Positions 7 through 64,000 of a stretch of DNA of 64,000 nt are shown here, piece by piece (the stretch's first letter is position 1; each line of letters opens with the position of its first letter). The translations under genes and the position numbers were made by a program. The stretch covers positions 1,795 to 65,794 of IMG/VR virus record IMGVR_UViG_3300030329_003041; one strand, 5' to 3'. This DNA is from a virus (lineage: Duplodnaviria; Caudoviricetes). The notes under the pieces are model-generated. The model made no database searches. It saw nothing but the letters and a program-made list of their open reading frames with translations, and was not told where the DNA came from.

Positions 7-225
7 TTACTTGATCTCATGCTCGCGAGCCCAAGTAGGAAGATTGTTAGTATTTGTGTAGTTGCCATATTTGTGCCAGCATGGCATAGCTTCTAACTTC
101 TTCTCATTAGCTTTGTAGACAACATCATGGTTGTACTTCCTTGTCTCACCTTTCTTGTTAGTGAAAGTTATGACAATGTTCTTGCCAATTAAAGTTTTTC
201 TCAATACAAATCTTTTTGATTTCAT
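7..225 (-). CDS. early hypothetical protein, paralog of 431..682
   Basis: 72-aa ORF; near-identical to 431..682 (RFVxRKTLIGK...KLEAMPCW.KY.NYTNTNNLPTWAREH); promoter motif 26 nt upstream. Confidence 0.85.
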   Translation of the reverse strand: MKSKRFVLRKTLIGKNIVITFTNKKGETRKYNHDVVYKANEKKLEAMPCWHKYGNYTNTNNLPTWAREHEIK

Positions 226-250
226 AGCATATAGTTTTTAAATTCAGAAT

Positions 251-283
251 TATTATCTTATAATGATCGTGCTGACTTTGTGA
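251..283 (-). promoter_or_regulatory. phage early promoter-like motif, copy 1
   Basis: + strand TATTATCT-N8-TCGT-N6-TTTGTGA (= TCACAAA-N6-ACGA-N8-AGATAATA on -), upstream of ORF 7..225. Confidence 0.8.
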
Positions 284-322
284 CGCGGGAAAATACGTGC
301 CCACTTTGTGAGTGCTATACAC

Positions 323-351
323 GTAAAAGAAAAGCCGCTCATTCGAGCGAC
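323..351 (-). terminator. intrinsic terminator after 431..682
   Basis: - strand GTCGCTC-GAAT-GAGCGGC hairpin followed by TTTTCTTTT. Confidence 0.6.
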
Positions 352-428
352 TGATCTTGAACCATGATCACACAGATCACCAAGCAGAGGATTACCACTG
401 CACCTACAAATATATCGAACATAAGCGG
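335..428 (-). ncRNA. putative structured RNA element between the paralogous early genes
   Basis: closing stem CCGCTTA..TTCGA / TCGAA.TGAGCGG enclosing GCAG/CTGC and TGATCT/AGATCA hairpins; GC-rich relative to the genome. Confidence 0.4.
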
Positions 429-430
429 AG

Positions 431-682
431 TTATTTAGACTCCACTTGATGTTCTCTCGCCCATGTCGGCAAGTTATTAGTGTTGGTGTAGTTTTTATAC
501 TTGTTCCAACACGGCATTGCCTCGAGTTTCTCTTTGTTGGCATTGTACACCGCGTCGTGATCGTAGGTGAACGAGTTGCCTTTCTTGTTAGTGAATGTGA
601 TGATCGCCTTTTTACCGATCAATGTCTTACGCATAACGAATCGATTAGTAGTCATGCTGTTCAATGCTGCCTTCTTAGCCAT
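431..682 (-). CDS. early hypothetical protein, paralog of 7..225
   Basis: 83-aa ORF with A-rich 5' leader and promoter motif upstream. Confidence 0.85.
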   Translation of the reverse strand: MAKKAALNSMTTNRFVMRKTLIGKKAIITFTNKKGNSFTYDHDAVYNANKEKLEAMPCWNKYKNYTNTNNLPTWAREHQVESK

Positions 683-2349: not shown

Positions 2350-3912
2350 ATGGAGTACAATAACCCTTCTCAGCTCATAAAAGAGTTGAATTTTGGCCAA
2401 AATGCCAAATCTAAGATTGCAAGTGGCGTAAATAAGCTTGCAAAAGCAGTAAAATCGACGCTTGGAGCGTCGGGAAAGTGTGTGATTTACGAAGATGCAC
2501 GAGGAAATCCAGTAATTACTAAAGATGGTGTGACAGTAGCGGAAAGTGTAGTACTTTTTGATCCAATTGAGAACATCGGAGCAACGATGATCAAGGAAGC
2601 TGCTAAAAATACCGTAAAAGAGGCTGGTGACGGAACTACAACTGCCACTGTTTTAGCTGAAGCTTTGTTAAGTAGTATTTCTAAGCATAGCGATGGACCT
2701 ATTAGAGCTCTAAAAAATGGTGTTAATTCAGGTTTAAAGAAGATTAATAAATATTTAGATGAAGTCAAGATCGAAGTAGCAGACGAGAAGCTAGCTAACG
2801 TCGCTGCTATCTCTTGTAACAACGATTCTGAGCTAGGTGATATTATAGCTGAGGCCTACCAGAAAGTTGGTAAAGATGGTGTTGTGCTTATGGAAGAGTC
2901 TCCAACCGAGGATACTTACGTTGAGGTTGTTGATGGAGTACAATTTGAATGTGGAGTAACATCACCGCACTTCATCACAAATACAGATAAGCAGAAAGTT
3001 GAGCTTGAGCAGCCACTTGTTTTAATATGCATGTCTGAAATACCTAATATACGTAAGATTCAGAACATCTTAGAGTATGTTATTAAAAACAACCGATCTT
3101 TACTTATTGTAGCGGCAGTAAGTCAGCAAGTAAAATCGGCGCTGCTCATGAATAAAGTAAAAGGTAACATTAAGGTTAATATTGTAGATCTACCTGGTTT
3201 TGGTCCTACTAAGAAAGATACATGTGAAGACTTAGCCATATTAACAGGGGCTACGGTTGTAAATGAGGAGCTAGGAGACGATCTTGACCTTATAGATGTC
3301 GAAACACTAGGGGAAGCTGAATATGCGACCACAGATGACAGATATACAGTTCTAACGGTTGATTCTGATACTGAAGCTGTAGAAGAAAGAATCAAACAAG
3401 TTAGTAAGCAAATAAAAGATGAAAAGAATCAGTACATTAAGAAAAAGCTTCAAGAGAGGTTATCTATGCTTTCTGGTTCGGTTGGAGTTATCAAGGTTGG
3501 CGCAGATTCTAAGATTGAACTTAAAGAGAAGAAAGACAGGGTTGAAGATGCGATATACGCTGTTAAAGCTGCTCTTAAAGAAGGGATTGTTCCGGGCGGA
3601 GGTATTGCATTACTTAATGCTTCTCAAAAAATCGAACCCACTAACGTGGGTGAAAGAGCTATTATTGAAGCTATACAATCGCCTTTCAAAACAATAATGT
3701 CTAATGCAGGTCTAGAACCTCAAACTGTATCGGGTGAAGGTTTAGGCGTTGATGTCGTCACAGGTGATATTGTTGACATGGTCAATGCTGGTATTATCGA
3801 TCCAGTTCTCGTAACAAAGTCTGCACTCAAGAACGCTGTGAGTGTAGTTACAACTATAGTATCAGCGGACTGTGTAATCTCAAACGCAAGAGCAGATGAA
3901 AGCAATCAATAA
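2350..3912 (+). CDS. groEL: chaperonin GroEL (Cpn60)
   Basis: [41 protein letters not shown] motifs; lacks the GGM tail. Confidence 0.97.
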
Positions 3913-62700: not shown

Positions 62701-63045
62701 TTCTTGAATATTAAAGAAAGCATCTATAGCTTCGTATATTATTGAAGTTAAGTTGCTTCGATCATCAAAATTTATACTCTGTAACTGAATTCTATTATCA
62801 TAGTCTATTTCAAAATCACATTCGTAGTTATCCACATCGTCAAAATCATACTGGTCAATAATATCTTCTATTCTATTCGTTAGTTTAGAAAAATCATCAT
62901 TACTAAGCTTTGGCTTGTTAAAATCCTCTAACTCTTTAGTTAGTTTATTTTGCTCGTTAACTAAGTTCTTAACACCGTTGCTTGACTCTTCAATCAACAC
63001 GGTTAACTCTTTAATTCTTGTTTCTAATTCCTCTTTGGTTTTCAT
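62677..63045 (-). CDS. acidic coiled-coil hypothetical protein
   Basis: 122 aa downstream of promoter copy 7. Confidence 0.75.
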   Translation of the reverse strand: MKTKEELETRIKELTVLIEESSNGVKNLVNEQNKLTKELEDFNKPKLSNDDFSKLTNRIEDIIDQYDFDDVDNYECDFEIDYDNRIQLQSINFDDRSNLTSIIYEAIDAFFNIQENESTDSE

Positions 63046-63075
63046 AAGTGTTTGGTTTTTAATTAATTACGGGTT

Positions 63076-63108
63076 TATTATCTGTTAGTGATCGTATTAA
63101 GTTTGTGA
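63076..63108 (-). promoter_or_regulatory. phage early promoter-like motif, copy 7
   Basis: TATTATCT-GTTAGTGA-TCGT-ATTAAG-TTTGTGA on +. Confidence 0.8.
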
Positions 63109-63110
63109 TA

Positions 63111-63272
63111 CTATGGTTGTAAATACTCAGTTACTGGTCCGATTTCTACATCATCATCGTATATAATTATACTAGGGCATATACCATATTTTAATACATA
63201 CTCTATTATACCTTCTATTTCATCAGCGTGATATATATAGCTGATCGTGTCTTCTATTTTTATTGAGTACAT
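63111..63272 (-). CDS. small hypothetical protein (not in the ORF track)
   Basis: 53 aa MYSIKIEDTISY...; TAATG coupling. Confidence 0.55.
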   Translation of the reverse strand: MYSIKIEDTISYIYHADEIEGIIEYVLKYGICPSIIIYDDDVEIGPVTEYLQP

Positions 63273-63487
63273 TATTTAGAGTAGTTTTTAGGTGCAAACA
63301 TTAATCTCGTTTGTAATACTATTGCTTCACAATCTTCGTCAGATATATCACCTATATCATCATACTCGATTTCAAACTCGTCTAATACACGAGCAATACC
63401 ATTCCAAAATGTTGTATCTAAGTAATCTTCTAAGTCATCAGCCATGTAGCTAGCTATTTGTTCAATGTGTTCTTCTGTTAATTTCAT
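63272..63487 (-). CDS. very acidic small protein
   Basis: 71 aa, D/E-rich. Confidence 0.7.
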   Translation of the reverse strand: MKLTEEHIEQIASYMADDLEDYLDTTFWNGIARVLDEFEIEYDDIGDISDEDCEAIVLQTRLMFAPKNYSK

Positions 63488-63516
63488 AGTATTAAATTTA
63501 ATTTAGTAATAAAAAA

Positions 63517-63920
63517 AGTAGTGACCTAATCAAAGGACGAAAAGCTATGAAAAAGGAAACCTTATCATAGATCACTACTCATATAAATAAAATCTAGTTG
63601 TGGTTCACACTCTTATGGTGAATACTACGCACTGCGACCAGCCTCCCACTTTTTAGGCTAATTTAAGGATGATCAATTCCGGCCTTTGGAACTAGATTAA
63701 TAATAAGAGCAGTACCTTGTTTCATACCCCCGATCGACTGGGTTTCCCGGTGTTTACACTGCTCTTTAATATTAAGCAGAGAGAGGAGAACTGGTTAATT
63801 TTTATACTCCCTTTAGTCCAGACTCTCTGCAGTAAGCCTTATTCCTTCTACTTATCTGGATCTATTTACACGCGACCAGAATCAATCGAACCTTAAAGTT
63901 TACTTACATATAACCTGCTT
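63517..63920 (-). ncRNA. array of putative structured non-coding RNA units
   Basis: four consecutive elements, each closed by a perfect 8-9 bp stem and separated by short A/T linkers, plus a further structured segment; no ORF; strand inferred from context. Confidence 0.55.
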
Positions 63921-64000
63921 TAATATCTCCGCCCTGAGTGTTTAAAGCGACAGTTAATAATAAAAAGCTATGTTACTCGTCAGTAACTCCACTCCAGCGG

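What the first reader, a model, noticed from the sequence alone, without database searches (positions are those of the whole stretch)
63517..64000. Array of closed-stem non-coding RNA units in the early region
Seen: an ORF-free ~500 nt made of consecutive units, each bracketed by a perfect inverted repeat: AGTAGTGA/TCACTACT (63517-63579), AATCTAGTT/AACTAGATT (63591-63698), AAGAGCAGT/ACTGCTCTT (63705-63766) and GCAGAGAG/CTCTCTGC (63776-63830). A further segment has GTAAG/CTTAC and TCTGG/CCAGA pairs (63832-63907). Units are separated by short A/T linkers and contain internal hairpins (CTATGA/TCATAG, TTCAC/GTGAA, AGCCT/AGGCT, a GG-GAAA-CC loop and GGTTCGATT on -). They differ in sequence, so this is not CRISPR, and none folds as a tRNA by eye. 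Inference: a polycistronic small-RNA cassette processed at the U-rich linkers (decoy, anti-defence or antisense RNAs). Unit 1 on - contains TTTCATAGCTTTT, complementary to an AAAAGCTATG start context like that of gene 431..682. The array is cut off by the window edge.
Basis: partly seen in the sequence, partly recalled or inferred. Interest (0 to 1): 0.7.

Follow-up and report, generated by a model that had tools for sequence, protein, structure and literature searches.

The report
Shuffled small-RNA cassette island in phage
The ORF-free end of this marine phage genome is a string of small, separately folded RNA modules that related phages carry in many different orders beside a tRNA gene and tRNA-like elements, and none of them matches a described RNA family.

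Summary
The four perfect inverted repeats lie at the stated coordinates. The stretch is the longest ORF-free gap of the 65.8-kb genome, and the units differ in sequence. Single repeats of this kind occur at chance density, but four tiled head to tail occur in 0 of 200 shuffles.

Comparison with 79 related loci shows seven modules, read on the minus strand like the flanking early genes:
- the 3' end of a larger closed RNA, "Q", cut by the contig end;
- a near-invariant hairpin, B;
- a near-invariant rod with a variable hairpin, u5;
- a covariation-supported, possibly pseudoknotted unit, u4;
- three rare units, u3, u2 and u1.

Relatives carry the same modules in 14 different orders. There they sit with tRNA-Arg(UCU) and with tRNA-like elements that keep an acceptor stem and T arm but have a variable or missing anticodon arm.

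No module matches Rfam, ARAGORN or 185,579 prokaryotic genomes.

Best reading (0.5): a cassette island of autonomous small structured RNAs, co-transcribed with early genes and released by host RNases. Transcription, processing and function are inferred, not shown. The proposed antisense target is a chance match. Closest known are the T4 RNAC and RNAD of the tRNA region.

The parts
63967..64000 (-). 3' end of element Q, a closed, structured RNA of about 115-140 nt. The stretch holds the 3' strands of two helices, the hairpin GUUAC-UGACGA-GUAAC and the closing strand. The 5' part of Q lies beyond the contig end.
   Evidence: 94-97% identical over 35 nt in about 20 loci. The full element was read in 17 distinct sequences. 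The motif occurs in 21 of 80 sequences. In 19 of the 20 related loci with the motif tRNA-Arg follows it; the exception is L019, and the window itself also lacks it. Motifs of the 5' part are absent from the genome record.
63909..63956 (-). Module B: hairpin GCUUUAA/UUAAAGC with an 18-nt loop ACACUCAGGGnGGAGAUA, extended by an outer helix.
   Evidence: 95-98% identical in about 30 loci. Found in 31 of 80 sequences by motif. The stem never varies except for one G.U (L054) and one compensatory outer pair (L048), read. Fold.
63832..63907 (-). Unit u5: a rod-like RNA of 76-92 nt with closing helix GUAAGY/GCUUAC, three 3-bp helices, UCUGG/CCAGA, and a hairpin of variable length and sequence at the tip.
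   Evidence: 20 distinct sequences; 58 of the 76 positions of the window's copy (92 alignment columns) are invariant. 22 consensus pairs with 0 broken cells, 1 compensatory pair (G-C to A-U) and 8 one-sided changes, all to G.U on this strand.
63776..63830 (-). Unit u4: 55 nt with an 8-bp closing helix and a 5-bp inner helix stacked on it. A bulge CUGG can pair with CCAG in the loop, giving a possible H-type pseudoknot.
   Evidence: 6 distinct sequences; 97.1% of cells paired against 51-65% when partners are slid. 5 pairs show changes on both sides, 3 in the closing helix and 2 in the inner helix. The CUGG/CCAG helix is invariant, so it is untested.
63705..63766 (-). Unit u3: 62 nt with a 9-10-bp closing helix. 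It is probably derived from the tRNA-like element type 1, with the T arm lost.
   Evidence: Found only in L018 and L019 besides the window. Global alignment to tRNA-like type 1 scores 21 against 9.2 +/- 3.7 in shuffles; 23 of 2000 shuffles reach it. u1, u2, u4 and u5 show no such similarity. There is no covariation to test.
63591..63698 (-). Unit u2: 108 nt with 9-bp perfect terminal inverted repeats, flanked by the direct repeat TTATT. It is an insertion relative to the closest relatives.
   Evidence: Absent from L018, whose matches join across it. An RNA-library contig joins 63578 to 63692, skipping 113 nt, with 6 letters fitting either side. Another run's contig covers 63622-63796, so u2 also exists elsewhere. 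No homologue in the loci or in IMG/VR by a 16-mer: 8 hits, all chance. The internal fold is no better than shuffles, z -0.2.
63517..63579 (-). Unit u1: 63 nt. The closing helix extends to 12 bp on the minus strand through one U.G. Inside is the hairpin CUAUGA..UCAUAG, and a run of seven U follows.
   Evidence: Fold z -3.7; 0 of 200 shuffles fold as well. One homologue, L018 at 97%, in which the first pair becomes G.U. The terminator scan does not call it because its loop is too long.
63272..63487 (-). The 71-aa early gene that follows the array by 29 nt on the same strand. It served as the anchor for finding relatives.

Best explanation
The stretch is the downstream part of an RNA-gene island on the minus strand of a marine phage of Flavobacteriia-phage kinship. 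It holds seven autonomous folding modules, each closed by its own terminal helix: the 3' end of Q, then B, u5, u4, u3, u2 and u1.

Shown:
- the modules exist;
- at least Q, u5 and u4 are kept as RNA structures on this strand;
- B and u5 are nearly invariant in their unpaired parts;
- related phages carry the modules as interchangeable cassettes, in many orders, together with a real tRNA-Arg(UCU) and tRNA-like elements whose anticodon arm is replaced or missing.

Inferred:
- the island is transcribed with the flanking early genes as one precursor;
- host RNases cut the single-stranded A/U-rich linkers, and RNase P / RNase Z cut at the tRNA and tRNA-like members;
- the terminal helices protect the released 50-150-nt RNAs from exonucleases;
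- the conserved loops then bind a host or phage partner in trans.

The partner and the benefit are unknown. The hypervariable cassette content suggests a role in the contest with the host. u1-u3 are rare and may be young or decaying members.
For: Orientation and context: all neighbouring genes are on the minus strand. In relatives the modules lie between a stop codon and the next start codon on the same strand.

Structure:
- u4 has 97.1% of cells paired and 5 pairs with double changes; slid controls give 51-65% and 0-1.
- u5 has 0 broken cells in 22 pairs x 20 sequences, with 8 one-sided changes, all to G.U on this strand, and 1 compensatory pair. Its tip hairpin changes length and sequence while staying a hairpin.
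- Q has one compensatory change in its closing pair. Its hairpin stem reads CCAC/GUGG, CCUCU/AGAGG, CCCC/GGGG or CCACC/GGUGG, and its long helix reads CUC-G-CAG/CUGGAG, CACACU-G-CGG/CCGAGUGUG or CAUG/CAUG (read).
- Module X of relatives closes with GUCAACUC/GAGUUGAC or GUUAACUC/GAGUUAAC.

Conservation: B and u5 are 91-98% identical where flanking coding DNA is about 70-84% identical.

Modularity: 14 module orders in 40 complete clusters. u2 is present or absent as a whole.

tRNA link: ARAGORN finds tRNA-Arg(tct) in 33 loci. tRNA-like elements with an acceptor stem and T arm end 40 clusters.

Not coding; the indels are not multiples of three.

Tiling beyond chance.

Weak hint of RNA: short contigs from four RNA-labelled libraries of three studies cover parts of u1-u5.
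Against: - No direct evidence of transcription, discrete RNA species or processing. The RNA-library contigs are short, of low depth and unstranded, may come from DNA, and several span unit borders.
- u1, u2 and u3 have 0-2 homologues and no covariation. u2's internal fold is no better than shuffles.
- Single inverted repeats of this size are at chance density.
- B and most of u5 are so invariant that covariation cannot test them. Such conservation could also reflect recent horizontal spread.
- No partner protein or target was found. There is no complementarity to the phage's own genome beyond chance.
- No promoter or terminator was detected by the consensus scan, which does not model Bacteroidota promoters.
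Confidence: 0.5

Rival explanations
1. Cis-acting mRNA elements: the modules are 3'-UTR stabilisers, 5' leaders or processing punctuation for the flanking early genes. They do not act as RNAs after release.
For: In relatives the cluster begins 1-2 nt after the stop codon of the 117-aa gene and ends about 17 nt before the next ATG. In the window it ends 29 nt before the 71-aa gene. u1 is followed by a run of seven U. Plant mitochondrial t-elements are a known case of tRNA-like structures that define mRNA ends (PMC1920247, abstract seen in the listing).
Against: The same modules serve different neighbours. They lie after the 117-aa gene in 40 clusters, but after Q and before the 71-aa gene in the window, L018 and L019. 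u4 directly abuts tRNA-Arg in L033. Near-invariant loops are not needed for mere stabilising hairpins.
Confidence: 0.15
2. One long multi-domain RNA: the whole island (500-900 nt) is a single large ornate RNA with variable peripheral domains, like the large phage-borne RNAs found next to tRNA genes.
For: The modules abut with linkers of 0-11 nt. L019 has about 900 nt of ORF-free structured sequence. RNA-library contigs cross module borders. From recall, GOLLD and ROOL RNAs lie in phages beside tRNAs; only the listing of a cryo-EM preprint on them was seen.
Against: Module order is not kept: 14 orders were found, and u4 lies before or after the tRNA-like element. Every module is closed on itself, and no long-range helix between modules was seen. 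No Rfam hit to GOLLD, ROOL or any large RNA at E<=1.
Confidence: 0.12
3. Decaying remnants: the units, above all u1-u3, are degenerate tRNA or tRNA-like genes left after rearrangement of the tRNA region and have no function of their own.
For: The window lacks the tRNA-Arg that follows Q in 19 of the 20 related loci that carry the Q motif; L019 also lacks it. u3 resembles tRNA-like type 1 without its T arm (23 of 2000 shuffles), and the window copy has lost the GG of the D-loop-like motif kept in L018 and L019. u1-u3 are rare, in 1-3 of 80 sequences.
Against: Q, B, u5 and u4 are under clear constraint and are not cloverleaves. Perfect 8-12-bp closing helices would not survive neutral decay. u1 folds far better than shuffles.
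Confidence: 0.12
4. DNA-level elements: either miniature inverted-repeat insertion cassettes, or single-stranded-DNA hairpins that serve replication or packaging near a genome end.
For: u2 has 9-bp perfect terminal inverted repeats, a flanking 5-nt direct repeat (TTATT) and an empty site in L018 and in one run. Whole units come and go. The array lies at the contig end.
Against: Each unit is single-copy in the genome. Insertions of u5, X and u4 in relatives show no flanking duplication (read). No transposase is nearby. In relatives the island is internal to contigs of 66-72 kb. The helices vary by G.U on one strand only, the coding strand of the neighbours. The u5 and Q motifs are absent from 185,579 prokaryotic genomes; u2 was not scanned there.
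Confidence: 0.08

Closest known systems
Bacteriophage T4 RNAC and RNAD (the 'species 1 and 2' stable RNAs of the T4 tRNA region)
   Same: They are phage-encoded small non-tRNA RNAs that lie with the phage's tRNA genes, and their function is still unknown. PMC9697503 calls them 'RNAs of yet unknown functions' and detects them by Northern blot (passage read). Their position in the tRNA cluster and their processing with the tRNAs are recalled, not checked here.
   Different: T4 has two RNAs. Here there are seven modules in the window and at least twelve kinds in relatives, shuffled as cassettes. No sequence or structure comparison with RNAC/RNAD was possible, because none was held. The hosts are unrelated.
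tRNA-like processing signals (plant mitochondrial t-elements; MALAT1 mascRNA and gammaherpesvirus tRNA-miRNA units, the last two recalled)
   Same: In relatives, and at L002 318-462 of this genome, elements with an acceptor stem, a D-loop-like motif and a T arm, but without a working anticodon arm, sit at the border between the RNA modules and the next gene. This is the layout of known RNase P / RNase Z punctuation (PMC1920247, abstract in the listing).
   Different: The window stretch itself holds no such element. Cleavage was not tested. The bodies of these elements vary from about 47 to about 200 nt.
GOLLD / ROOL large ornate RNAs of phages
   Same: They are phage-borne, tRNA-adjacent, multi-domain and partly variable (recalled; listing only).
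   Different: No Rfam match. The module order here is not fixed.
Candidate structured RNAs predicted from IMG/VR (Fremin et al. 2023, PMC10690425)
   Same: That study mined the same collection for covarying intergenic motifs and reports tRNA-like candidates (passages read). Some of the modules may already be in its list of 8,495.
   Different: Its supplementary tables could not be opened, so overlap is unknown. The passages read describe no shuffled multi-module island; the words 'array' and 'tandem' occur 0 times in its main text.
Tandem-repeat RNA arrays (CRISPR, type III toxin-antitoxin ToxI, RNA anti-CRISPR repeat units)
   Same: An ORF-free array of short units, probably cut from one precursor.
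   Different: The units here are unrelated in sequence and differ in length from 48 to 108 nt.

Membership tests
tRNA | Cloverleaf with anticodon arm, detected by ARAGORN | tested here: not met
   0 genes in the window, in the other contig end and across the joined ends with default, intron and mitochondrial settings. Only very low-threshold calls with 33-896-nt 'introns' appeared.
tRNA | Match to Rfam RF00005 | tested here: not met
   No hit at gathering score or at E<=10. In 10 related loci only tRNA-Arg reaches E<=1; the tRNA-like elements do not.
tRNA | T arm: GGTTCGA loop closed by a 5-bp stem | tested here: not met
   In u5 the flanks of GGTTCGAYT (TTAAGG / GATTC) are not complementary in any of 20 sequences.
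Any Rfam 15 family | Covariance-model match | tested here: not met
   Window at gathering score: 0. L001 and L002 at E<=10: six matches (best 22.6 bits against a gathering score of 60.8); one of them, BTnc005 (16.7 bits against 174.8, E = 2), overlaps window 63724-63855 on the minus strand, and all are taken as noise. Ten loci holding Q, B, u5, X, u4, u3 and the tRNA-like elements at E<=1: only tRNA-Arg and one sub-threshold Hammerhead_3 elsewhere.
Hammerhead ribozyme (considered for Q because of CUGACGA and CGAAA) | Three helices around the CUGANGA / GAAA / NUH core in cyclic order | tested here: not met
   CUGACGA is the loop of the hairpin GUUAC/GUAAC, and the order of the elements fits none of types I-III (read). 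No Rfam hammerhead hit on loci with Q.
CRISPR / ToxI-type repeat array | Units alike in sequence | tested here: not met
   No unit matches another at E<=0.05.
Intrinsic terminator | Short G+C-rich hairpin followed by a U run | tested here: inconclusive
   The scan finds none on the minus strand. u1's closing helix is followed by U7, but it encloses 39-47 nt. In L018 the U run is broken.
MITE-like mobile element | Terminal inverted repeats plus target-site duplication | tested here: inconclusive
   u2 has 9-bp repeats and a flanking TTATT on both sides, with an empty site in L018 and in a run contig. Insertions of u5, X and u4 in relatives show no duplication.
MITE-like mobile element | Many copies within a genome | tested here: not met
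   Each unit occurs once in the 65.8-kb record. Host genomes were not scanned for u1-u4.
Structured non-coding RNA (general) | Helices kept through compensatory changes | tested here: met
   u4. Q (partly by eye, because MAFFT misaligns the variable hairpin). u5: one compensatory pair and 8 wobble changes with 0 breaks. There is no variation to test for B, u1, u2 and u3.
Phage tRNA-region stable RNAs (T4 RNAC/RNAD kind) | Location among the phage's tRNA genes | tested here: met
   In relatives Q is followed by tRNA-Arg (19 of the 20 related loci with the Q motif; not L019, and not the window), u4 abuts it in L033, and the clusters end in tRNA-like elements. The window's own genome has lost tRNA-Arg.
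Phage tRNA-region stable RNAs (T4 RNAC/RNAD kind) | Accumulation as discrete stable RNAs cut from a common precursor | not testable with these tools
   Only assembled contigs of RNA libraries were available. They show neither ends nor strand.

The most novel reading that the evidence does not exclude
These phages keep a hypervariable 'RNA cassette island': a recombining library of a dozen or more unrelated small structured RNAs, including anticodon-less mini-tRNAs of about 47 nt. The modules are swapped between genomes as defence and counter-defence genes are. They act as decoys or inhibitors of host RNA-directed immunity or of tRNA-targeting enzymes. u4 would be a new compact pseudoknot fold, and Q and u5 new RNA classes with protein or ligand partners.
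Probability: 0.2. Interest if true: 0.85.

Novelty: new variant of a known kind. Interest (0 to 1): 0.62.

Why it matters
Small RNAs that sit with phage tRNA genes have been known since T4, yet remain unexplained. This island offers a much richer case. It has at least seven modules in one genome and twelve or more kinds in its clade, several under strong constraint, and none in Rfam. They are present in marine metagenomes from many studies and exchanged as cassettes. This gives RNA biologists several new families to solve: Q, B, u5, u4, X and the tRNA-like elements with replaceable bodies. It also gives a natural experiment, the presence or absence of modules, for finding what they do. The anticodon-less tRNA-like elements may show how a phage uses host tRNA-processing enzymes to cut its transcripts. 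If the modules counter host defences, they would be an RNA counterpart of the protein anti-defence islands.

Tried and rejected
- tRNA, tmRNA and intron-bearing or organellar tRNA readings: ARAGORN was negative under all sensible settings.
- Rfam: nothing relevant.
- Isolated phages: no DNA match to 63000-64000.
- Hammerhead reading of Q: rejected on topology and on Rfam.
- Permuted or split tRNA reading of u5: rejected, because there is no T stem.
- Circular junction: the contig ends do not join into Q, since motifs of Q's 5' part are absent. The record is therefore cut inside the island, perhaps because the island's variability breaks assemblies.
- Search for u2 elsewhere: a 16-mer gave only 8 chance hits in GC-rich viral contigs.
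- A looser u5 pattern gave 8 chance hits in what was taken by eye for a coding sequence.
- The 93-aa neighbour gene gave no related loci.
- Consensus promoter and terminator scan: uninformative.
- Host or cellular origin: the u5 and Q motifs have 0 matches in genome contigs. These were exact-pattern scans, so diverged copies would be missed.
- Runs with small word shares were not used to name a habitat.
- RNA-library contigs leave 63876-64000 uncovered; this proves nothing.
- Earlier findings and kin genomes were not available for this virus record.
- RNAalifold on the MAFFT alignment of Q recovered only part of the structure, because the variable hairpin is misaligned. No covariance model was built.

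Full report
**What the window is.** The window is bases 1795-65794 of a 65,794-bp IMG/VR virus record, so the window end is the contig end. The genome has 33% GC. It encodes a large terminase, a portal, a GroEL-like chaperonin, ribonucleotide reductase, a primase-helicase and three giant proteins. Its terminase is nearest to an uncultured Caudoviricetes record (65% identity) and to Flavobacterium, Cellulophaga, Tenacibaculum and Maribacter phages (46% for the best-listed Flavobacterium phages). All genes next to the finding are small and lie on the minus strand.

**Check of the observation.**
- The fifth segment has the stated GTAAG/CTTAC and TCTGG/CCAGA pairs.
- 63488-64000 is the longest ORF-free gap of the record.
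- The units do not resemble one another.
- ARAGORN and Rfam are silent.
- A single 8-bp inverted repeat with a 30-100 nt spacer means nothing in this A+T-rich genome: there are 117 against 115 +/- 11 in shuffles.
- Four such units tiled head to tail are never reached in 200 shuffles.
- The stretch is G+C-rich for this genome.

**Relatives.** The 71-aa gene that follows the array gave 3 IMG/VR loci. An alignment of the four homologues then gave 76 metagenome loci. I laid the minus strand of the array on them.

**What the relatives show about each module.** The array is a chain of independent modules.
- *Q.* 63967-64000 is the 3' end of a closed RNA of about 115-140 nt. Its motif is found in 21 of 80 sequences, and in 19 of the 20 related loci that carry it tRNA-Arg(UCU) follows, directly or after a short insert; L019 and the window lack the tRNA. 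Several of Q's helices keep pairing while their sequences change. Q's 5' part is not in this record, so the contig ends inside Q.
- *B.* 63909-63956 is a hairpin that is 95-98% identical in about 30 loci.
- *u5.* 63832-63907 is a rod. 58 of the 76 positions of the window's copy are invariant in 20 distinct sequences. No predicted pair is ever broken, and every one-sided change goes to G.U on this strand. The tip hairpin varies freely in length and sequence.
- *u4.* 63776-63830 has six distinct forms. Five pairs changed on both sides and 97% of cells are paired, against 51-65% when the partners are slid. A bulge and the loop can form a further 4-bp helix that would make a pseudoknot. That helix never varies, so it is unproven.
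- *u3.* It occurs only in the two nearest relatives. It looks like the clade's tRNA-like element without its T arm (23 of 2000 shuffles reach the alignment score).
- *u2.* It is an insertion. L018 and one sequencing-run contig join cleanly across it, and it carries 9-bp terminal repeats and a flanking TTATT on each side.
- *u1.* It has one homologue. It folds well (z -3.7), and a run of seven U follows it.

**The wider island.** In most relatives there are two RNA slots.
- Slot 1, upstream of the 71-aa gene, holds Q and tRNA-Arg, sometimes with a further closed module, X.
- Slot 2, after a 117-aa gene, holds B, u5, X and u4 in varying combinations. It always ends in a tRNA-like element about 17 nt before the next gene.

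I found 14 module orders in 40 complete clusters.

The tRNA-like elements keep an acceptor stem, a D-loop-like motif and a perfect T arm. Between these parts they carry almost nothing (about 47 nt in all), an arm with an 8-nt loop that ARAGORN sometimes calls tRNA-Thr, or inserts of up to about 170 nt. They do not reach E<=1 against the Rfam tRNA model.

The same kind of element lies at the other end of this genome, outside the window (L002 318-462, minus strand). Its acceptor stem covaries with that of a relative (GGAAG/CUUCC against GAAAG/CUUUC).

In the window, L018 and L019, the slot-2 modules stand directly behind Q, and tRNA-Arg is missing. L019 has about 900 nt without an ORF.

**Strand and nature.** The following all point to RNA read on the minus strand, co-transcribed with the early genes:
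- wobble-only changes;
- a UUCG-capped hairpin in a relative's extra module;
- hairpins of variable length;
- the position of the modules between a stop codon and the next start codon.

The only expression data are short, low-depth contigs from four RNA-labelled libraries. They cover parts of u1-u5, and several cross module borders. This is a weak hint at best.

**Mechanism.** I take the island to be a set of autonomous small RNAs cut from an early precursor. Cleavage would occur at the single-stranded A/U linkers and at the tRNA and tRNA-like members. The terminal helices would shield the products from exonucleases, and the near-invariant loops would bind an unknown partner.
- Shown: structure, conservation, modular exchange and orientation.
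- Inferred: transcription, processing and action in trans.

Confidence is 0.5. The rivals are cis-acting mRNA elements (0.15), one long ornate RNA (0.12), decaying tRNA-like remnants (0.12, higher for u1-u3 alone) and DNA-level elements (0.08).

It fails. The array has no complementarity to the rest of the genome beyond what shuffles give. The second copy of the 10-mer is Q's closing strand.

**Comparison with known systems.**
- Nearest in kind are the T4 RNAC and RNAD RNAs, which are still of unknown function (PMC9697503, passage read; their tRNA-cluster location is recalled).
- The tRNA-like terminal elements resemble the t-elements of plant mitochondria (PMC1920247, abstract only).
- GOLLD and ROOL are tRNA-adjacent phage RNAs but have fixed architectures, and neither matches here.
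- A survey of IMG/VR predicted 8,495 candidate structured RNAs, among them tRNA-like ones (PMC10690425, passages read).
- No module motif tested occurs in 185,579 prokaryotic genomes; u5 and Q were the ones tested.
- Isolated phages have no DNA match to 63000-64000.

**Verdict.** This is a real and unusually dense island of new small structured RNAs tied to the phage's tRNA and tRNA-like genes. It is a new variant of a known but unexplained kind. Function is unknown, and the rare units u1-u3 are the weakest part.

Noticed in passing
L002 318-462, minus strand (genome bases 318-462, outside the window): A tRNA-like element of about 145 nt. It has a 7-bp acceptor-like stem (GGAAGUG/UGCUUCC), the D-loop-like motif UAUUGGUUAC, a perfect T arm AGUGG-UUCGAUU-CCACU and a body of about 100 nt. 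It lies 12 nt before an 81-aa gene that starts MRRL. It is conserved in L019, L056, L046, L069 and L005, and its acceptor stem covaries in L005. ARAGORN and Rfam do not call it.
   Followed up: partly
L040 1570-1625: A sub-threshold match to Hammerhead_3 (40.8 bits against a gathering score of 48.5; E 1.7e-5) in a relative's early region, next to the homologue of genome bases 39-70.
   Followed up: no
L019 3490-3870: A further ORF-free stretch of about 380 nt, closed by GUAGG/CCUAC, between u3 and the 71-aa gene. It has no Rfam match at E<=1. Its first 30 nt also follow u4 in a metatranscriptome contig.
   Followed up: no
L004 4760-4870 and L036 1490-1570: In tRNA-like element type 3 (GCUCGGA/UCCGAGC), the L004 copy carries the loop motif of module B (CUCAGGGAGGAGAUA) as an insert inside its body. 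The motif therefore moves between modules.
   Followed up: no
window 7-682 and L002 1111-2476: Three tandem paralogous genes of 72-83 aa on the minus strand. Each is preceded by a similar upstream block of about 60 nt (CACAAA..GGCACGA..GATAATAATA on the minus strand).
   Followed up: no
L002 1-28 (genome start): The first 28 bases of the record are G+C-rich and have no counterpart in any relative, whereas bases 29-70 do. The two contig ends do not join, so the record is probably not complete despite the 100% completeness estimate.
   Followed up: partly
window 2350-3912 and 18679-40686: A GroEL-like chaperonin gene (phrog_5725, E 2e-136). Also three giant ORFs of 1937, 1620 and 2864 aa, the last two without any PHROG match.
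   Followed up: no
L035 1212-1262 and L047 1247-1320: Additional lineage-specific closed modules lie between u5 and the tRNA-like element. One has a UUCG tetraloop hairpin.
   Followed up: no
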